Shown piece by piece: positions 1 to 35,751 of a stretch of 64,000 bases of DNA. The position numbers and the translations under genes are program-made. The stretch is from a virus. The notes under the pieces are model-generated. The model was not told the origin of the DNA and searched no databases. It saw only the letters and a program-made list of their open reading frames with translations. The stretch covers positions 160,001 through 224,000 of IMG/VR virus record IMGVR_UViG_3300045988_119718. The stretch is one strand, 5' to 3'. The stretch's first letter is position 1. Each line of letters opens with the position of its first letter.

Positions 1-201
1 TCGCCTTTATACGCACCTGATTGAGATTCAGCATCAATATCACATTTAATAACCCTTACTGATTCTGGTGGAATAAAACTAAATGATGTTATACTATCAG
101 TGCTTTCAAACCTACTATCACTAGTTATTTGAGCTGTTGCGGGGCTAGCACTAAATACTACTACCCCCCCCCCGTATAGTTCCTTTTAAAGTTGTTGTCA
201 T
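1..201 (-). pseudogene. 5' portion of a gene running off the window start, with its frame interrupted 9 codons after the start by a G10 homopolymer (C10 on the + strand). Candidate phase-variable or homopolymer-miscalled structural gene
   Basis: GGAGGA-N6-ATG sits at 199-201 on the minus strand. The current frame reads MTTTLKGTIRGGGSSI-stop. Deleting one G opens the frame through to position 1 (at least 67 codons, ...VVVFSASPATAQITSDSRFESTDSITSFSFIPPESVRVIKCDIDAESQSGAYKG). Confidence 0.35.
164..173. repeat. C10/G10 homopolymeric tract
   Basis: Ten consecutive C on the + strand in a genome that is otherwise very AT-rich, lying inside the 5' end of a minus-strand ORF. Confidence 0.9.
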
Positions 202-2685: not shown

Positions 2686-3489
2686 ATATTCTTTTACTTT
2701 ATCATAGTAATAGTCTTTATTTAAAAATGCTTTCTTAAATTCTTCTAAAGACCCAAATAGTTCTTGTAAATCTCTTCTGTTATCATATAAGTATTTTATC
2801 AAGTTCATATGTCTATCATAAAGTTTAGGATAATGCTGTTTTATTTTTTCTAAGTTTTCAGCAGTATTATATTGAATTGGACATATTAAGCAAGATCTAG
2901 TGAATCCTAAAGTATCATAATCTTTATTAAGCTTTATATTATTTTCCTTAATATACTCATAGCAGTCTTCATCTGTCCAATTAAATATAGGAGAAATTAT
3001 TTTTTTATTTCCTTCTTTTATGGTAATTGCAGATTTAACCCAAGTCTTAGTATTGTATAAATCGTCTTTTCTAACACCAGTGAAAAATATATCATATTTT
3101 TTTAATACTTTTGTTGTTGTTTGCCGTTTATATGAGCAGCAAGATAATAAAAATTTACTATTTATAATATTATTATCTTTGTATAATTTTTTGATATAAG
3201 AAGATAAAGCAAAACATTTATTTTCTTTCATATACTTTTCAGCATCTATACCAATAATAGTTACATCAGGTCTAGATTTAAGATAATCTAATATACCATC
3301 ATCTTCAAACCCAGTAGCAATATAATATTGATAAATAAAATCTCTTACTTTTAATTCTTTTAATAAATTATCGACGATTACACTATCTTTACCACAAGAA
3401 AATAGAAAACATGCATTATCGTCTTTAGAGTAATTATCTAAAATTATTTGTTTAGATTCTTTTATTTTTTCTTCTAGTTGATTAGTCAT
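2665..3489 (-). CDS. PAPS-reductase-like PP-loop ATP pyrophosphatase family protein
   Basis: FLFSCGKDS matches the SGGKDS PP-loop of the PAPS reductase/DndC-like family. There is a C-terminal CxxC. Confidence 0.55.
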   Translation of the reverse strand: MTNQLEEKIKESKQIILDNYSKDDNACFLFSCGKDSVIVDNLLKELKVRDFIYQYYIATGFEDDGILDYLKSRPDVTIIGIDAEKYMKENKCFALSSYIKKLYKDNNIINSKFLLSCCSYKRQTTTKVLKKYDIFFTGVRKDDLYNTKTWVKSAITIKEGNKKIISPIFNWTDEDCYEYIKENNIKLNKDYDTLGFTRSCLICPIQYNTAENLEKIKQHYPKLYDRHMNLIKYLYDNRRDLQELFGSLEEFKKAFLNKDYYYDKVKEYLEKEKK

Positions 3490-29253: not shown

Positions 29254-29491
29254 AATAAACTCTCCTTTGCATAAAAACACTTATGAAAAAAGCCTTTTAT
29301 TCTAAAGTGATTATAATTTTATATATCTATTTTCTATAAATAACGCATAGAAGATTTTCTATATGTCCGGAAAATTAACAAAGGTTTTTAAACTGGAATA
29401 GTTCAAAAGTGTAATAGACTTCTACAACTTTATAAACTATTCTTTACTGAAGAAGTGTAAAACTTTTATTTTTATTGAAAGGAGAAAACTT

Positions 29492-29596
29492 TATGAACTC
29501 TATTATTGAAAAAAGTATATATGCTATTTTACTATTTCTCTGGAGTATTATTATCTACGATATTATTTCTGGTAATATTATTGAAGAACTTTTATA
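29492..29596 (+). CDS. Possible 34-aa hydrophobic peptide
   Basis: GAAAGGAGAAAACTTT-ATG. MNSIIEKSIYAILLFLWSIIIYDIISGNIIEELL is one TM-like helix. Confidence 0.25.
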
Positions 29597-29699
29597 AACT
29601 TTCTTAACTTCTATAACTTTATTGGAGTTTTTAACTATTAGGTTGATTCTAGGAAAGGATTTGTGCGACTGAAAGGAGCAACAAAACTTTCCGCCATTA

Positions 29700-29765
29700 A
29701 AAATGGGTTCTAACCCCCGTGAGGGGGTGGTGATTGTAGATTCCTACCCCCTGGAGGTAGACTAG
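29700..29765 (+). other. GC-rich structured element (two adjacent hairpins) in an AT-rich background
   Basis: CCCCC-gtga-GGGGG and CTACC-ccctgga-GGTAG. No tRNA cloverleaf could be built. Confidence 0.3.
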
Positions 29766-29811
29766 CTTTTAAACTTTTACCAAGTTTTATACTTTATAAA
29801 CTTTTTTAATT

Positions 29812-29837
29812 ACCATCTTCGGTATATACCGAAGATG
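29812..29837. terminator. 26-nt perfect palindrome CCATCTTCGGTATATACCGAAGATGG, candidate terminator for the 29470-29840 plus-strand unit
   Basis: Perfect self-complement with TATA centre, followed by TTATATTCTTT. Confidence 0.4.
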
Positions 29838-30233
29838 GGTTATATTCTTTAAAAACTGTATTTTTAGAAAGAATTCTTAATATATCAATACACTTATATT
29901 GAATTAAGGTTTAGAACTCTTATATTAAAAAATGCAGTGTTATATTTCTATTATATTGGATAGGTTTAGAACAGTATTATTTTGAAAAATACTTATAAAC
30001 TTGTTTTTATTGGTATTTTATTTACACTTCTTAATTGAAGAGGTTTTATAACTCTTTTCAATTAAAAATAAAATTATAAACTCGTAGTTTATAAAGTTTA
30101 GAAAAAGTTTATAATTATAGTATTTTTTCAATAAATTCTTTTTTGTTATTATTTAATAATTCATGTACATTTTCGTAATGAAATTTTTTTGACTACTTTT
30201 ATAGTTTGTATTCTTTTTTCTTTCCCTCTTTTT

Positions 30234-30280
30234 GGAGGGAAAGGGGGATGGGGGTTCTAGGGGGTAGGGGGGGGAAGGGA
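30234..30280. repeat. G-rich tract (GGAGGGAAAGGGGGATGGGGGTTCTAGGGGGTAGGGGGGGGAAGGG), G-quadruplex candidate
   Basis: G runs of 5, 5, 5 and 8 within 45 nt, flanked by mirror-image pyrimidine runs (TTTCCCTCTTTTT / CCTTTTTCTCCCTTTC). Confidence 0.8.
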
Positions 30281-30689
30281 ACCTTTTTCTCCCTTTCTTT
30301 TTTCAACTTCATAAAAATGTATAGATTCTTTTCTATCTTTATAAGTTGTATTTCAATGTATTCTAATAGAAATATGGCTATTCAGTAGTAAAAAATAAAA
30401 CGATTTTTCTTATAACTTCAGTGTAAAAACAAGGGTATGAGATTGATTCTCATACCCATATCTTACCTCGTATATTGCTTTCATACAAAAAATGCTATAT
30501 CTCAAAATATAGTATCGTATTCCTATTAAAAATAATAGTCATAGGAGCATGGTTTAAAAATACAACATTACATACTTCCTATAGAAAAATGATTTTTTCA
30601 TGGATTTTTACCTAAATATCAATAATTTCTGTCTAAATGCGAATCATTCGCATTTGTTAGAAAAAGTTTATAATTATAAACTGAAAAAA

Positions 30690-30940
30690 TCGCTAATTTT
30701 TTAGTTAAAAATTAAAAATCAACTAACATACCCTTTTTTCGCTATTTTCGTATTCCTATTAGTTTTAATGGAAATATGACTTTCTCATACCTTGCTAAAA
30801 ATTTAGTTAAAATTGAAAAACCAATTAACATACACTTTTTTAGCCATATTCGTATTCCCATTGGTTCTAATGGAAATACGACTTTTCAATTTTTTCTAAA
30901 AATTTAGTTAAAATTGAAATACCAATTAACATGTGGTCAC
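30690..30940. repeat. Tandem direct repeats of ~105 bp (2.4 copies)
   Basis: AAAAATTTAGTTAAAATTGAAA(A/T)ACCAATTAACAT... occurs at ~30796 and ~30899, with a degenerate copy at ~30700. Each unit contains TTCGTATTCC(T/C)ATT(A/G)GTT..AATGGAAATA. Confidence 0.75.
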
Positions 30941-31022
30941 TACGAAATTATAAACAAAAGTTTATAATTAGTTTATAATTTATTTTTAAAGAAAATAAAA
31001 AACATGATAAAAGACAGCAGAA

Positions 31023-31049
31023 ACCCAGTACAGGATAAACCTGTACTGA
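31023..31049 (-). terminator. Hairpin downstream of the 1448-aa gene
   Basis: CAGTACAGG-ataaa-CCTGTACTG, followed on the minus strand by GGTTTCTGCTGTCTTTTATC. Confidence 0.4.
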
Positions 31050-31096
31050 GTATTCACGCTATCTTCAGTTGGTATACTATAATGTAGGTAAAAATA

Positions 31097-34000
31097 TTAA
31101 TCATGAAGATTATCTACATTAGTAAGGTTATTCCACTTTATACCAAGTTTTTCCTTACACTGTCTAGATAATTCCATAAGTACTTTGTTCAATGAACCAC
31201 TACTAATGATAGAAGCTGTCATACGAGCATTAACCGATGCTGAAGTTAATAAAGCATCTATTGGTTCATCAGGTCTAAAATCAGTATATGGTTCTTTACC
31301 TTTAGGCATAATATCTTTTACTACACCTTTGATTGCAGTGTTGTAAGTCAGCTTATCACCAACGCCCATCTTATCTTCACACTTGATGTAGAAGCAGAAC
31401 ATTACACCTTTTTCCAAGTTCTTGAATTTGCCTTCTGGTAATAACTTTTCTGTAGAAGGTACTGATTCATTAATTTCTATATCTGTTACTCCGTTATCTT
31501 TAAGATATTTCTTTTCTTTCTTTATAGAATTTTCATACTTAGAAACTATCTTCTTTAATGATGGAGATAATTCATCTAATTCACAAGTTCTAAATATTTT
31601 AATATCTTGAAGAGTACCAGTAATCTTAGAATGAACTTGAATTCTACCAAAGTCTGTAGCTAATTCTAATTCATCATCAGAAATATTCTTCATTAAAGTA
31701 TTAGCTTCATCATCAGTAAATGCATTCTGGAAGATTATTAATGGAGAACCTTCTTCTATAGGTTTACCTTTTTCAGCTAAGAAGAATACATTAGAACCAG
31801 CATCTAAAGAACATGTTTTTTCTACACAATAGAATGAAGTAAGAGCATCTGAAATACGTTCATCTATAATAGAAGAATCTTCATATGCTTCATCTGTACA
31901 CATTATAGCTATTTTAGCCATAGTACCAATGTTAAATGCAACGTTTTTATTATCAGCGTTATGCCCTATAGAGGGACTGAACGAAGTTGGGTCATATGCT
32001 AAGATATCATTATACTTTAAGGTTTGACCTTTCTTTACAAAAGGTTTAAGTTTAACTGTTACATAGAAACCACCATCAGAGTTCTTCTGTGTTTTCTCTC
32101 TTAAATCTACAGAATGCTTGGATTTATTACCGTCTTTATCTACTTCTTCAAAGATAATAAAGTCATCAGTAATATTTAAAACTTTTCCTTTTACTCCTTT
32201 AAATTTATAAGAAAAAATATTAGAAGTAAAGTAAGGTAATGCCTCATCCATGCCATAAGTAATAAAATTCGGAGATGAAGATTTAACTCTCATAATATGC
32301 TTAGTAGTCTGAATATAGCCCATTGCAGTACGAATTGGGTCATCATGTGTAGTAGCATAAGGAGCCATAGCTTCATAAACAGACATACCATTCAATGTAT
32401 TCAATTTAGATTTATCATTACTTACTTTAAGTATACCTCTGCCATCAGCTATGGAAGAATTAATAGTAGCCTGTCTAGTAATACCTACATTACCAGCAAA
32501 CCCAGTAGACATAGATAAGATACCTAACATGGAATCGTCATATACACGTTTATCTAATGTATAAGCTCTATCAGCATTCATACCAGATAAGCCTTTGAAT
32601 GAGTATGTATTAATAGCTTCAGCTTCTAATAATGGAGAAGATACCGAAAGATCAGATATACCAGGGTCTTTCATAACTGCATCTATAAGAGCAGACTGTT
32701 TAATGGTAAACTTAACTCCTCTACCAGTTCTCTTCGATTTATTAGCATATTGACCATATGCATTAGCAATAGCTTGATATAAATAACCAGCTAATATTTC
32801 ATTAGAACGTAATCTATTACCAGAGATATCTGCATGCTTATTATAAGAAGTAGAAGCTAATAAGCTACTAGCATAAGCTAATGCTTCTATATAATCGTAT
32901 GGAATATCGTACTTCTTGCAAATATCAATAGTCATAGGATCAAATTCGCAATCATAGAAGTTATCAAAACCATCAGCTTTAATTCTACCACCAAATTCAT
33001 CTAAGATATCTAACCACATATTTTTTGTGTTGATATCTTTAATAGAGAATCTAGATAAATCAGTTTTAGCTAATCCTGCCATTAATAATGAATCTTCTGG
33101 CTTCTCATCATTATAAACTAAATATCCATCACTAAATCTAATTACAGATTCTGTTTCAGTTACCTTAGGTCTAGTATCAGAGAATCTGTATTTAATCTTA
33201 GCTTTATCCATAGACTTCTGTAAACCTTCAGAAAAAGCCATAAGAATAATAACTGGAATTTTAGTATTCATGATAGATGCTTGAGAGTAAGAAAGTTTAT
33301 TAGATGGTTTAGCTAAAGCATAAGTTTCTGCAAATACTTTATCTTTAGAAGCTAAGAATTTACCAATAGTATAAGCTGCATTTTCTTTATTAGAATAGAT
33401 AGCTTTTTTAGTTTTACTATCATACCCAATTAAGATATCAGTTTTTTCATTAAATTTTTTATCTACAGGAAGTTTCTTTAATGCATCATAGTCAAAAGCT
33501 ATATAACTTCCATCAGCTGTAGTAATTTTAGAGTATAAAGCACCTAAGTCTTTAAATTCTATCGGCATATCATACTTGGAAAGAATAAAAGTATTATCAC
33601 CGATATAAACTTTAACTTTAGAATCTGTGTCTTTTAAGTTCTTTAAAGCTTTAGTAAGTTTAGATACACCTTTAGTAGACTTAGTACCACCAGAAGGATT
33701 AACTCTTGAAATAAATATTTTATGATAAGAGGTAACTATCTGAGTTGTATCCTCTTCTGTTTTAATTATAGGAAGTAAAAGAATCTGTCCAGCTATAGTT
33801 TTAGTATTTCCTCTTAATTTCATAAATCTATGATTTATAAATTTAGGAATATCTATAGCTATATTTGATCTAGTACCATTAATATCTTCTAATTGTACTC
33901 TTAAAGTATAAATATAATCTTCATTAGTAGATTCATCTGTCATTTCCATACTAGCAACACATAATGGCCTAGACTTATTTCTAAGAGATTTAAATATAGC

Positions 34001-35443
34001 AATAATATCTTCATCTATATCATAGGATTTATTAAAGTCTAAAGCTGTTACATCTTTCCATTCTTCATTAATAGAATCAATGGGAATAGTTTCAGGCTTT
34101 AATTCTCTTTTCTTAGTATAGTAATTCTTTAATACATCTCCTACTTTTTTACCATGGATTACAGTTTTATCAAAATCTTTATCTAACTGCTCCATTCTCT
34201 TTTTTCTAGCTTCAGTTATTTTAGTAATAGGAGGATTATCTAAATCTAATATTACATCCTTGATATAATCTTCATCATTATCTACTGTAATTTCTTTTAA
34301 TTCTTTTTCTTGAGATTCTTCTTCTTGTTCTTCCTCGGATTTTTCTTTAGGAGTCTCATCATCGTTGAATCCATCGTCATCTAAATCATCTGGATTAAAA
34401 GAAGCTTTAGCTGAAATAGAATCAGAATTATTTTTCTTTTTAGATTTAGTAGCACCAAATCTATTATCCATAACTATTGAATCAGAAGAATCTGGATTAA
34501 TCTCAGCATCATCTGCATTAGATAAGTCATTCTTTATTAATTTTTTAGTAAAGAATACAAATCTAATTAAATCTTTAATATCGAAATTAGAGAAGTCTAC
34601 TTTGAAGTATGCATTTTTAGAAGCGATAATAAAGTCTATACCACTCCAATAATTAGATATAATCTGTCTTTGTCTAACTAATCTATAAATCATAGAAAAT
34701 GGGTTTATAGAATTATTAAAATCAAATATATCGCAGCCTTTAGGAATCCATGATTCTACAGGAATGATACAGGTCTTTCTAGAATAATATTGATTAATTC
34801 TAGAATCATCTAAGTATCTAGTGATAATATGATGAAGTAAGTCTAATCCTCTATCTCTTTGATAAACTTTATTATTTTTCAAGAATATATTTATATAATG
34901 GGATAAATCTACGATAAGATTCTTTCTATTATATTGCTTTAGATTAACAAAAGTATTTCTAATAAATGGAACTTTAGCTTTAACTTTACTATAGATTTCA
35001 AATATTTCTTTTTGGTTTTTTATTCTTTCATTATAAAGAAGATTTCTAAATATACTTGGATAGTTTTGATTCATTCTAAAATCTTCATTTAATATTTCAT
35101 CTACTTTATCAGGAAAGAATACTCTACTATCATCTAAGTCATAATATAAATCATTATTATCACCATCAAATTTAGACTCTAACATAGTCTTCATAAACGG
35201 TTCATTTATAGTAGAAGCTTCATTAGTGAAAAATGTGAAATCCTTTTCTGTATAATATGAAATAAAAGTATTTCTATTAACAAGAAACTTATTATTATTT
35301 AAAAAGCTAATAGTATCATCAATATCCTTGGTTAATATAAACAAAGCACTATTATGATAAATATCATTTTGCGTATATGCTGGGTAAAATAGTTTTGTTT
35401 TCATTAACCTTAAAGGAATGAGTTTTTCTATCGTATATGGCAT
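31097..35443 (-). CDS. Multisubunit-RNA-polymerase beta-subunit homolog (C-terminal conserved regions) with a long unique N-terminal extension
   Basis: SPLLE...[31 protein letters not shown] aligns to RpoB NPLSE..[43 protein letters not shown]...[16 protein letters not shown] aligns to [52 protein letters not shown]...ARM aligns to [25 protein letters not shown]...SRMN. The three blocks occur in the same order as in RpoB. Confidence 0.6.
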   Translation of the reverse strand: [1448 protein letters not shown]

Positions 35444-35587
35444 GGCTATTTTCCTTTCTTTACAAAAAGTAAAATTTTAATTAAGTGTTTCTCTATTCAC
35501 ATTAGAATTAATGGGTATAGAAATTAAAAGTTTATATTCCTATTAACTTACATAGTAATAGAAATAGTTTAGAAAGGGTTATAAAGT

Positions 35588-35728
35588 ATGGAAAAACAAG
35601 AGTTCTTAGAAATAGTTAAGGGTTTCTCTAGAGAAGATTTTAAGAAATACCTATATAGAGAAATTAATAAAAAAAGAAAATTATTAGTTGTTATTAAAAG
35701 AGTAACTAAATCTAATAATAAAAAATAA
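35588..35728 (+). CDS. Possible small basic protein (46 aa)
   Basis: GAAAGGGTTATAAAGT-ATG; MEKQEFLEIVKGFSREDFKKYLYREINKKRKLLVVIKRVTKSNNKK. Confidence 0.3.
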   Translation: MEKQEFLEIVKGFSREDFKKYLYREINKKRKLLVVIKRVTKSNNKK

Positions 35729-35751
35729 AGTTATTTTTAGGAGGAAATATC

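What the first reader, a model, noticed from the sequence alone, without database searches (positions are those of the whole stretch)
30234..30280. G-quadruplex-capable G5/G5/G5/G8 tract
Four G runs of five or more lie within 45 nt in a genome where G/C runs are otherwise absent. The tract is flanked by mirror-repeat pyrimidine stretches. This is a textbook intramolecular G4 or triplex former and sits in the putative origin/regulatory hub. It is also a second long G/C homopolymer (G8) after the one at 164-173.
Basis: seen in the sequence. Interest (0 to 1): 0.6.

Follow-up and report, generated by a model that had tools for sequence, protein, structure and literature searches.

The report
Mirror-symmetric G-quadruplex element, jumbo phage
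In the largest non-coding gap of this AT-rich jumbo-phage genome, just after a late-type promoter motif, lies a 92-base element with four long G runs between two pyrimidine arms that are exact mirror images, and related phages keep that mirror symmetry while the arm sequence changes, which is rare evolutionary evidence that a G-quadruplex/triple-helix structure is functional.

Summary
G5/G5/G5/G8 lie at 30243-30274, the only canonical G4 motif in 64 kb (G4Hunter 2.84; none in 100 shuffles; none in 250 kb of phage PBS1, also about 28% GC).

The tract is the core of a 92-nt mirror-symmetric element (30213-30304). Two 21-nt pyrimidine arms are exact mirror images. Each arm also pairs with the adjacent purine block as a hairpin.

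Five related lineages carry the element although their surrounding gap DNA is only 61-95% identical. Their arm sequences differ, yet each is mirrored in its own genome (21/21, 21/21, 21/21, 29/29, 27/28; 1 of 120 permutations). This fits a pyrimidine-motif triple helix.

A motif matching the AR9-type late promoter (TACATTTTCGTA, predicted start A30177) lies 36 nt upstream in all six lineages. No ORF follows it, so the G-rich strand is the non-template strand.

G-run lengths vary. Two 5.3-kb relatives differ only by G7 versus G8.

Best reading (confidence about 0.4): a non-coding late transcription unit that acts during its own transcription through G4, hairpins and triplex to stop the polymerase or hold an R-loop, like mitochondrial CSB II. 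An origin role is untested.

Novelty: new variant of a known kind.

The parts
30166..30177 (+). Late-promoter-like motif TACATTTTCGTA (AR9-type AACA-N6-TA/G); predicted transcription start at A30177.
   Evidence: ACATTTTNNTA occurs 6 times in the window and 5 copies are intergenic. Four of these lie 24-70 nt upstream of start codons, two of them genes for virion structural proteins and one for a RusA-like resolvase. This copy is the fifth. The motif is conserved in all lineages, including L005. The AR9 consensus is from PMC5312081.
30177..30212 (+). Predicted 36-nt leader, containing the conserved block TTGACTA(A)CTTTTATA.
   Evidence: The alignment of the gap in 7 sequences shows this block conserved where the flanking DNA is about 60% identical.
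30213..30233 (+). Left pyrimidine arm CTTTTTTCTTTCCCTCTTTTT. Bases 30220-30228 pair with 30235-30243.
   Evidence: position and uniqueness; hairpin; mirror covariation.
30235..30243 (+). Left purine block GAGGGAAAG, Watson-Crick partner of the left arm. It is also compatible with Hoogsteen pairing, in parallel orientation, to CTCCCTTTC (30289-30297) of the right arm.
   Evidence: Read from the sequence; folds. The Hoogsteen compatibility is inference.
30243..30274 (+). G-tract core G5-AT-G5-TTCTA-G5-TA-G8, with the centre of mirror symmetry at TTCTA 30255-30259.
   Evidence: Run lengths vary among relatives: 5/5/5/7, 5/6/6/7, 5/6/6/8, 6/4/4/6 and 3/5/5/4.
30275..30281 (+). Right purine block AAGGGAA, which pairs with TCCCTT of the right arm.
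30284..30304 (+). Right pyrimidine arm TTTTTCTCCCTTTCTTTTTTC, the exact mirror of the left arm. With the right purine block it scores as a plus-strand hairpin followed by a T run (terminator-like).
30213..30304 (+). The whole mirror-symmetric element (pyrimidine arm, purine/G core, pyrimidine arm), single copy in the window.
   Evidence: The plus-strand RNA folds at -45.5 kcal/mol against -23.6 for the minus strand, and at -73 with G4 allowed.
30433..30457 (-). Context: a convergent minus-strand terminator-like hairpin GGGTATGAGAATCAATCTCATACCC followed by TTGTTTTT, about 130 nt to the right of the element.

Best explanation
The G tract is the core of a dedicated, non-coding late transcription unit. 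The phage's own multisubunit RNA polymerase is predicted to start at A30177 and to transcribe rightwards through the element, so the G-rich strand is the non-template strand and the RNA is G-rich. As the element is transcribed, three structures can form in the RNA and/or the displaced DNA strand. (1) Each pyrimidine arm pairs with its neighbouring purine block as a hairpin. (2) The four G runs form a G-quadruplex, either within one strand or as an RNA:DNA hybrid. (3) One arm binds as the third strand of a pyrimidine-motif triple helix (T.A-T and C+.G-C triplets) on the duplex that contains the other arm. This last step is the only known structural reason for mirror symmetry. The proposed net effect is to stop or stall the polymerase at the right arm and leave a very stable RNA-DNA structure (R-loop or 'G-loop') or a short, highly structured RNA. 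This is how mitochondrial CSB II works. A role in priming DNA replication or another late DNA transaction is possible. Shown here: the sequence architecture, its conservation, the mirrored covariation, the promoter-like motif, the strand asymmetry and the G-run length variation. Inferred: that transcription occurs, that the G4 and triplex form, that termination or an R-loop results, and any biological role.
For: 1. The G4 motif is unique and very strong. With G4 allowed, ViennaRNA predicts hairpin-G4-hairpin in 4 of 5 element-bearing lineages.
2. The arms are exact mirrors in every lineage although the arm sequence differs. Each left arm matches its own reversed right arm best (1 of 120 permutations).
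3. Window versus L002 shows 4 differences in the element, two of them a mirrored T>C pair at 30217 and 30300. Window versus L001 shows a second mirrored pair. The surrounding gap DNA is only 61-63% identical in L013 and L004.
4. The two-hairpin consensus is conserved and rich in G.U pairs, so it is specific to the plus strand.
5. The late-promoter-like motif is conserved in all six lineages. The same motif precedes virion structural genes and a RusA-like resolvase gene elsewhere in the window, and the consensus matches AR9 (PMC5312081).
6. No conserved ORF is present: G-run indels shift the frame between near-identical relatives.
7. The sixth lineage keeps the promoter motif plus G6-TCT-G6, close to CSB II's G6AG8, and two G tracts are enough for RNA:DNA hybrid G4s (PMC4176368 and PMC3488243).
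8. The phage's ordinary terminators are simple perfect palindromes followed by a T run and look nothing like this element.
9. PBS1, with the same GC content, has no such motif in 250 kb.
Against: No transcript data exist, so the promoter is a motif match only, and its first base here is T rather than A. No in vitro structural evidence exists. A 50-nt spacer is far longer than in classical H-DNA. No single static fold uses all the constraints: the hairpins need the arms single-stranded, while the full-length mirror fits best with arms in duplex DNA. In L004 the energy model prefers hairpins to the G4. L005 lacks the mirror arms altogether, so arms and G runs may be separable. A late promoter is not an obvious choice for origin priming. 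The gene-orientation switch that often marks an origin is about 5 kb away. Only five element-bearing lineages are available, all metagenomic.
Confidence: 0.4

Rival explanations
1. A trans-acting structured small RNA. The unit makes an RNA of about 130 nt (30177 to about 30305) whose G4 and hairpins, perhaps with a 3'-end triple helix (right arm bound in the groove of the left hairpin), make it very stable. It would then act on a protein or RNA target, for example as a decoy or sponge.
For: A promoter-like motif and a terminator-like right hairpin followed by T6 bracket the element. The plus-strand RNA folds at -45.5 kcal/mol, or -73 with G4 allowed. The right arm's CTCCCTTTC is Hoogsteen-compatible, in parallel orientation, with GAGGGAAAG of the left hairpin (sequence). 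Pyrimidine-motif triplexes can form in RNA (PMC4666352).
Against: There is no Rfam match. The primary sequence of arms and loops is not conserved between lineages, so there is no obvious conserved single-stranded recognition motif. An RNA-only triple helix explains the mirror only for the 9-13 arm positions opposite A or G that are Watson-Crick paired, not the perfectly mirrored outer arm positions (L013's outer 8 nt have no in-strand partner). The parallel third strand would need the 44-nt G-rich linker to cross the helix.
Confidence: 0.22
2. A DNA-only non-B structure (H-DNA plus G4/i-motif) that works without its own transcript, for example as a recombination or packaging signal, a replication-fork or supercoil barrier, or a protein landing site.
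For: A full-length exact mirror of homopyrimidine arms is the defining requirement of H-DNA, and every arm position gives a canonical triplet in every lineage. Two Logan contigs (L012, L016) end exactly at the left edge of the element. The G-run length is hypervariable.
Against: The 50-nt spacer would require about 70 bp to be unpaired. The conserved arm-to-purine-block hairpins and the G.T-tolerant strand asymmetry are not explained by H-DNA. The conserved promoter motif directly upstream would be a coincidence. The contig breaks are equally explained by poor sequencing or assembly of G-rich homopolymers. In the 231-kb and 237-kb relatives the element lies inside the contig, not at an end.
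Confidence: 0.18
3. An ordinary terminator or insulator. The element merely stops plus-strand transcription from running antisense into the RNA polymerase beta gene, and the G runs and mirror symmetry are incidental.
For: The right half scores as a plus-strand intrinsic terminator. In L005 a canonical GC-rich hairpin flanked by A7 and T6 occupies the homologous spot. A convergent minus-strand terminator lies 130 nt away.
Against: The phage's other terminators are simple perfect palindromes. A terminator does not need four G runs, a left hairpin preceded by a T run, or mirror symmetry kept through sequence turnover. It would also be odd to conserve a promoter 36 nt upstream only to terminate its transcript.
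Confidence: 0.15
4. Chance low-complexity sequence or an assembly artefact.
For: Homopolymers are error-prone, and some contigs break here.
Against: The same architecture appears in independent assemblies from ENA, Logan and IMG/VR. It was found in 0 of 100 shuffles and is absent from 250 kb of PBS1. Assemblers and polymerases cannot create mirror (non-complementary) repeats.
Confidence: 0.02

Closest known systems
[quoted passage not shown]
   Same: Both are long G runs on the non-template strand of an AT-rich genome, a short distance downstream of a promoter. In CSB II a G4 in the RNA, or an RNA:DNA hybrid G4, causes premature termination and a very stable R-loop that primes replication (PMC3488243, PMC4176368). 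G-run length heterogeneity tunes the effect there (PMC5027508), and heterogeneity is seen here too. The L005 lineage's G6-TCT-G6 is very close in form.
   Different: Here there are four G runs instead of two, plus flanking mirror-symmetric pyrimidine arms and hairpins that CSB II lacks. The polymerase would be a phage multisubunit enzyme rather than a single-subunit one. Termination, R-loop formation and priming are all untested here.
H-DNA-forming homopurine/homopyrimidine mirror repeats
   Same: The arms are homopyrimidine with exact mirror symmetry, as required for T.A-T and C+.G-C triplets (definition in PMC4666352).
   Different: The spacer is 50 nt and is itself G4-forming, whereas classical H-DNA has a few base pairs. 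The arms are also complementary to the adjacent purine blocks. The mirror symmetry is supported by covariation between genomes; I know of no such evidence for any H-DNA tract (my own knowledge, not searched exhaustively).
BoxC/PIT intrastrand triplex motifs of bacteria (ITxF classes I-IV)
   Same: Both have pyrimidine, purine and mirrored-purine blocks on one strand that could fold back as a triplex, and both are intergenic (PMC4666352).
   Different: ITxF motifs have three 6-15-nt stems joined by loops of 1-6 nt and occur in many copies per genome. Here the mirrored blocks are 30-50 nt apart, there are four blocks rather than three, and there is one copy.
Neisseria pilE G4 with its adjacent small-RNA promoter
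   Same: A promoter directly next to a G4 motif, where transcription of a non-coding RNA is needed for the G4 to form and act in cis on DNA.
   Different: That system drives pilin recombination in a bacterium, has a 16-nt G3 motif and has no mirror arms.
Intrinsic (Rho-independent) terminators
   Same: The right purine block and right arm form a stem followed by a T6 run.
   Different: The stem is rich in G.U pairs, is preceded by a G4 motif and a mirrored second hairpin, and is unlike the phage's other terminators.

Membership tests
Canonical intramolecular G-quadruplex motif | Four runs of at least three G separated by loops of 1-7 nt | tested here: met
   G5-2-G5-5-G5-2-G8. It is the only such motif in 64 kb and was found in 0 of 100 shuffles.
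Canonical intramolecular G-quadruplex motif | High G4 propensity score (G4Hunter above about 1.5) | tested here: met
   2.84 in a 25-nt window and 2.53 over 30237-30279.
Canonical intramolecular G-quadruplex motif | K+-dependent G4 signature in vitro (CD, melting, polymerase stop) | not testable with these tools
   Only an energy-model prediction is available (-73 kcal/mol for hairpin-G4-hairpin).
Canonical intramolecular G-quadruplex motif | Four-run motif conserved in relatives | tested here: inconclusive
   Kept in window, L002, L001/L010/L011, L013 and L004. L005/6/7 keep only two adjacent G6 runs, plus G3 and G5 inside a hairpin 17 nt away.
H-DNA (intramolecular triplex from a mirror repeat) | Homopurine/homopyrimidine arms | tested here: met
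   Both 21-nt arms are 100% pyrimidine on the plus strand.
H-DNA (intramolecular triplex from a mirror repeat) | Mirror symmetry of the two arms | tested here: met
   Exact in 4 lineages and 27/28 in the fifth. It co-varies between lineages.
H-DNA (intramolecular triplex from a mirror repeat) | Short spacer between the arms (a few bp; the cut-off of under about 8-10 nt is recalled from memory) | tested here: not met
   The spacer is 50 nt (30234-30283).
H-DNA (intramolecular triplex from a mirror repeat) | Supercoil- or pH-dependent single-strand reactivity | not testable with these tools
BoxC/PIT intrastrand triplex motif (ITxF) | Three compatible stems of 6-15 nt joined by loops of 1-6 nt | tested here: not met
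   The left arm and purine block fit (loop of 6), but the mirrored purine block is about 30 nt further on. Criteria are from PMC4666352.
BoxC/PIT intrastrand triplex motif (ITxF) | Multi-copy dispersed repeat | tested here: not met
   There is a single copy in the window.
CSB II-type co-transcriptional G4 terminator/primer element | At least two long G tracts on the non-template strand shortly downstream of a promoter | tested here: met
   G tracts begin 67-89 nt after the predicted start (23 nt in L005) in every lineage. The promoter itself is only a motif inference.
CSB II-type co-transcriptional G4 terminator/primer element | Premature termination and a stable R-loop or hybrid G4 | not testable with these tools
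   Needs in vitro transcription or RNA 3'-end mapping.
CSB II-type co-transcriptional G4 terminator/primer element | RNA-to-DNA transition (primer use) at an origin | not testable with these tools
   GC skew in the window only follows gene strand. Whole relative genomes could not be read.
Intrinsic terminator | G+C-rich stem-loop followed directly by a U run | tested here: inconclusive
   The scan scores the right half as a terminator only when G-T pairs are allowed. It is unlike the phage's other terminators.
Any Rfam RNA family | Score at or above the gathering threshold | tested here: not met
   No hit on the whole window. Over the gap, the best overlapping hits score 17-22 bits against thresholds of 45-99.
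ENE/MALAT1-type RNA triple helix (recalled from memory) | U-rich internal loop clamping a 3' A-rich tract | tested here: not met
   There is no A-rich 3' tract on the plus strand. The geometry here would be pyrimidine-purine-pyrimidine with a long linker (sequence).

The most novel reading that the evidence does not exclude
Natural selection maintains a composite G-quadruplex and pyrimidine-motif triple helix as a working, transcription-coupled switch in a jumbo phage. The late multisubunit RNA polymerase would write a short RNA that locks onto its own gene as an R-loop/G-loop clamped by triplex arms, and this would serve as the primer or licensing mark for phage DNA replication (or packaging). 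It would be a phage counterpart of the mitochondrial LSP-CSB II origin, and the first triplex supported by covariation between genomes.
Probability: 0.2. Interest if true: 0.85.

Novelty: new variant of a known kind. Interest (0 to 1): 0.62.

Why it matters
Whether G-quadruplexes and, even more, DNA or RNA triple helices do anything in bacteria and phages is still argued, mostly from motif counts and in vitro data. Here the evidence is evolutionary. Polymerases and recombination cannot copy mirror symmetry, so it must be kept by selection, and it persists while the arm sequence turns over. That gives a clean, testable case: break the mirror in one arm, then restore it with the mirrored change. 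The element sits downstream of a predicted promoter for the unusual jumbo-phage multisubunit RNA polymerases, whose termination and possible priming behaviour are unknown. Its hypervariable G run could act as a rheostat, as at human CSB II. In practice, the element appears to break short-read assemblies of these phages.

Tried and rejected
- Coding: the ORFs across the tract (30206-30388 plus strand, 30199-30312 minus strand) are rejected. G-run indels shift the frame between relatives that are otherwise identical or nearly so.
- Known RNAs: no tRNA or tmRNA. No Rfam family.
- SD/anti-SD mimicry: GGAGG at 30234-38 and the right arm's CUCCCUUUCU resemble a Shine-Dalgarno sequence and the 16S 3' tail. 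L004's arms and purine blocks lack both, so this is rejected.
- Mobile repeat: the element is single copy in the window.
- GC skew as an origin test: it only follows gene orientation.
- Searches for more relatives: megablast of the gap against 50,697 phage records found nothing. IMG/VR pattern scans found only one relative, plus two unrelated chance hits, L022 and L023. The species-genome scan found nothing.
- More distant relatives were not informative. L018/L019 (kinase 34% identical) and L025 have a different gene order and no element. L008, L009 and L024 contigs end too early.
- PBS1 scan (250 kb): no G4 motif, no paired G runs, no purine/pyrimidine mirror repeats.
- TTATAAAC motif: 12 of 26 window copies lie in the gap. 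I first took it for the element's promoter, but it is not enriched upstream of genes elsewhere, so its role stays open.
- Junction complementarity (GG/CC, GGG/CCC, GA/TC at the arm-core junctions): noted but not interpretable with five sequences.

Full report
**Where the window comes from.** The window is 28% G+C and has no tRNA or Rfam hit. It encodes very large proteins, including a 1,448-aa RNA polymerase beta-like protein (31097-35443, minus strand). The best phage matches for that protein, at about 30% identity, are PBS1/AR9, Staphylococcus S6-type, Listeria LPJP1 and Yersinia phiR1-37. It also encodes ThyX, a thymidylate-kinase-like protein, virion structural proteins, a tape-measure-like giant protein and a head protease. 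It is therefore a piece of an uncultured jumbo phage with its own multisubunit RNA polymerases.

**Checking the observation.** The G runs are exactly as described: G5 at 30243-47, G5 at 30250-54, G5 at 30260-64 and G8 at 30267-74, with a G3 on each side.
- It is the only canonical G4 motif on either strand of the 64 kb.
- The pattern was found in 0 of 100 dinucleotide shuffles.
- G4Hunter gives 2.84, against 1.76 for the next best site.
- PBS1, a cultured phage with the same G+C content (27.7%), has no G4 motif, no pair of neighbouring G4+ runs and no purine/pyrimidine mirror repeat in 250 kb.
- Elsewhere in the window G/C runs of five or more are rare but at about the random expectation, so 'otherwise absent' is a slight overstatement.

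**The real extent of the feature.** The tract is the core of a 92-nt element, 30213-30304.
- The left arm is CTTTTTTCTTTCCCTCTTTTT (30213-33) and the right arm is TTTTTCTCCCTTTCTTTTTTC (30284-304). They are exact mirror images.
- The purine-rich core is quasi-mirror about TTCTA at 30255-59 (self-mirror alignment score 114 against 21.9 +/- 5.1 for shuffles).
- Each arm is also complementary to the adjacent purine block. CTTTCCCTC (30220-28) pairs with GAGGGAAAG (30235-43), and AAGGGA pairs with TCCCTT on the right.
- As RNA, the plus strand therefore folds into two long hairpins rich in G.U pairs (-45.5 kcal/mol), while the minus strand reaches only -23.6.
- When G-quadruplexes are allowed, the predicted optimum is hairpin, five-layer G4, hairpin (-73 kcal/mol).
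- The element is single copy.
- It lies in the largest non-coding gap of the window (29281-31096, 1.8 kb; the next largest gap is 572 nt).

**Relatives.** Protein-guided searches recovered the same locus from independent assemblies: IMG/VR, an ENA WGS contig, ENA metagenome assemblies and Logan assemblies. Identity of the non-coding gap to the window is 95% for L002, 86% for L001/L010, 63% for L004, 61% for L013 and 56% for L005. At the lower values the DNA is barely alignable.
- Five lineages carry the element.
- Their G-run lengths are 5/5/5/8, 5/5/5/7, 5/6/6/7, 5/6/6/8, 6/4/4/6 and 3/5/5/4.
- L010 and L011 are identical over 5,316 nt except for G7 versus G8 in the last run. That run is therefore either hypermutable or systematically mis-called.
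- Two Logan contigs (L012, L016) end exactly at the left edge of the element. This is consistent with sequencing or assembly trouble and, less likely, with a physical DNA end.

**Mirrored covariation (the key result).** The arm sequence differs between lineages:
- window: CTTTTTTCTTTCCCTCTTTTT
- L001: CTTTTTCCTTTCCCTCTTTTT
- L002: CTTTCTTCTTTCCCTCTTTTT
- L013: a 29-nt arm, CTTTCTTTCTTTTTCCTCTTTCCCTCTTT
- L004: a 27/28-nt arm of different sequence

In every genome the right arm is the mirror of that genome's own left arm (21/21, 21/21, 21/21, 29/29, 27/28). Pairing each left arm with its own right arm beats all other assignments (1 of 120 permutations). Between the window and L002 the element has four differences, and two of them are the mirrored pair 30217/30300 T>C. 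The window-to-L001 comparison adds a second mirrored pair (30219/30298).

A polymerase copies complements, not mirror images, so no copying mechanism can homogenise a mirror repeat. Selection must be keeping it. The only structural rule I know that demands identical bases in antiparallel pyrimidine strands is the pyrimidine-motif triple helix (T.A-T and C+.G-C; rule as set out in PMC4666352).

Three realisations fit this rule:
- H-DNA in the duplex.
- An intramolecular RNA or single-stranded DNA triple helix, with the right arm in the groove of the left hairpin. CTCCCTTTC runs parallel to GAGGGAAAG and is Hoogsteen-compatible with it at all nine positions.
- The transcript's arm binding the duplex of the other arm as an RNA.DNA-DNA triplex.

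The perfectly mirrored outer arm positions face G runs or nothing in the single-strand fold (for example the outer 8 nt of L013). This favours a version in which the full arm lies on duplex DNA. The conserved hairpins, in contrast, need a single-stranded state (RNAalifold consensus). No single static fold uses every constraint, which is why I favour a dynamic, transcription-coupled reading.

**Evidence for transcription.** AR9 late promoters have the consensus AACA-N6-TA/G, with the last base as the start site (PMC5312081; review PMC7598289).
- In this window the sub-motif ACATTTTNNTA occurs six times, and five copies are intergenic although 89% of the window is coding.
- Four copies lie 24-70 nt upstream of start codons, in the correct orientation, two of them in front of virion structural protein genes and one in front of a RusA-like resolvase gene.
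- The broader consensus also precedes the tape-measure-like, structural and head-protease genes by 11-35 nt.
- The fifth intergenic copy is TACATTTTCGTA at 30166-30177 on the plus strand, 36 nt before the left arm. No plus-strand gene follows it for 5.5 kb.
- It is the best conserved sequence near the element and is present once in every lineage, including L005, L012 and L016.

So the G-rich strand is predicted to be the non-template strand of a non-coding late transcription unit. The right hairpin plus T6 scores as a plus-strand terminator. A minus-strand terminator-like hairpin (30457 to 30433) faces it 130 nt away, and the polymerase gene has its own terminator-like hairpin at about 31020-31050. 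The phage's other terminators are simple perfect palindromes followed by a T run, so this element is more than a routine stop signal.

**The sixth lineage.** L005/L006/L007 (and L020) have the promoter motif immediately followed by a canonical GC-rich hairpin flanked by A7 and T6, and then CAAAAA-G6-TCT-G6-ATTTTTC. They have no mirror arms, but a T35 run lies about 190 nt upstream of the G runs. What is shared by all six lineages is therefore the promoter motif, a hairpin and at least two long G tracts on the non-template strand. That is the CSB II arrangement, in which two G tracts are enough because the RNA supplies the other two (PMC4176368, PMC3488243). G-run length acts as a rheostat at CSB II (PMC5027508).

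**Verdict.** The G4/triplex interpretation is supported in silico and by conservation. The origin label is untested, and the gene-orientation switch at about 35.5 kb argues weakly against it.
- My best explanation, at about 0.4, is a co-transcriptional G4, hairpin and triplex device that stops the phage polymerase and/or holds an R-loop.
- The rivals are a trans-acting structured RNA (0.22), a DNA-only non-B element (0.18), a plain terminator or insulator (0.15), and chance or artefact (0.02).
- It is not a member of the BoxC/PIT family (the loop rule fails) and not classical H-DNA (the spacer rule fails). It works most like CSB II, with added triplex arms.
- I rate it a new variant of a known kind. 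Its interest comes mainly from the mirrored covariation, which is unusual evidence that such structures matter in vivo.

Noticed in passing
window 164-173 (with the minus-strand ATG at 201): The C10 run is a G10 run at codons 10-13 of a minus-strand gene with a strong ribosome-binding site (AAAGGAGG). As assembled the ORF stops after 16 codons. With G9 it stays open to the left end of the window. This is either a phase-variable (slipped-strand) gene start or a homopolymer miscall.
   Followed up: partly
window 31021-31096: About 76 nt just downstream of the RNA polymerase beta stop codon are almost 100% identical in all lineages, even where the rest of the gap is 56-63% identical. The stretch holds a hairpin (CCCAGTACAGG-ATAAA-CCTGTACTG) followed on the minus strand by TTTCTGCTGTCTTTT, but the conservation runs 45 nt beyond the hairpin. 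That is more than a terminator would need.
   Followed up: partly
window 29640-29765 (+): A G+C-rich, structured-looking segment (CCCCC-GTGA-GGGGG and CTACC...GGTAG hairpins). It is present in L002, L001/L010 and L017, and absent from that spot in L004, L013 and L005. In L001 it is flanked by a duplicated block of about 480 nt, as if inserted. There is no Rfam match.
   Followed up: no
window 29493-29597 (+): A small ORF for a hydrophobic 34-aa peptide (MNSIIEKSIYAILLFLWSIIIYDIISGNIIEELL) with ribosome-binding site AAAGGAG. It is conserved in L001, L002, L004 and L013 and sits inside the 'non-coding' gap on the strand opposite to the flanking genes.
   Followed up: partly
window 29813-29838: A perfect palindromic hairpin (CCATCTTCGG-TATA-CCGAAGATGG) that shows compensatory changes among relatives: L017 CCATCTCTGG/CCAGAGATGG, L004 CCTCTTCCAGC/GCTGGAAGAGG, L013 CTTCTTTCAGC/GCTGAAAGAAG. 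It is a real conserved stem, probably the terminator of the small ORF. The L017 contig ends in it.
   Followed up: partly
window 29281-31096: The 8-mer TTATAAAC is strongly clustered: 12 of its 26 copies in the window, on both strands, lie in this 1.8-kb gap. One copy is part of a perfect 16-nt palindrome, GTTTATAATTATAAAC, at 30665-30680. It could be an early-promoter core or a protein-binding site.
   Followed up: partly
window 30690-30935; also 30348, 30517 and about 35530: Three tandem repeats of about 102 nt, with the full imperfect palindrome GTATTCCCATT..TAATGGAAATAC at 30750 and 30852. Degenerate copies lie at 30348 and 30517, and a similar palindrome lies in the divergent gap 35444-35751. 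These look like operator or iteron sites.
   Followed up: partly
L005 about 3405-3440; end of L020: The lineage that lacks the mirror arms has a T35 homopolymer about 190 nt upstream of its G6-TCT-G6. The L020 contig ends inside it.
   Followed up: no
window-wide, e.g. predicted start sites at 1773(-), 35478(-), 36848(+), 45213(+), 51948(-), 52467(+), 57347(+), 59836(+): AR9-type late-promoter motifs (AACA-N6-TA/G) lie 11-35 nt upstream of structural-gene start codons. This suggests the uncultured phage shares the AR9/PBS1 late-transcription logic. Those phages have uracil-containing DNA. A ThyX plus kinase-like gene cluster sits next to the gap.
   Followed up: partly
L012 and L016 (contig ends); L008/L009: Short-read (Logan) contigs end exactly at the left edge of the element. 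Two contigs of a 59%-identity lineage end 145-256 nt upstream of the kinase gene. The gap is a recurrent assembly breakpoint.
   Followed up: partly
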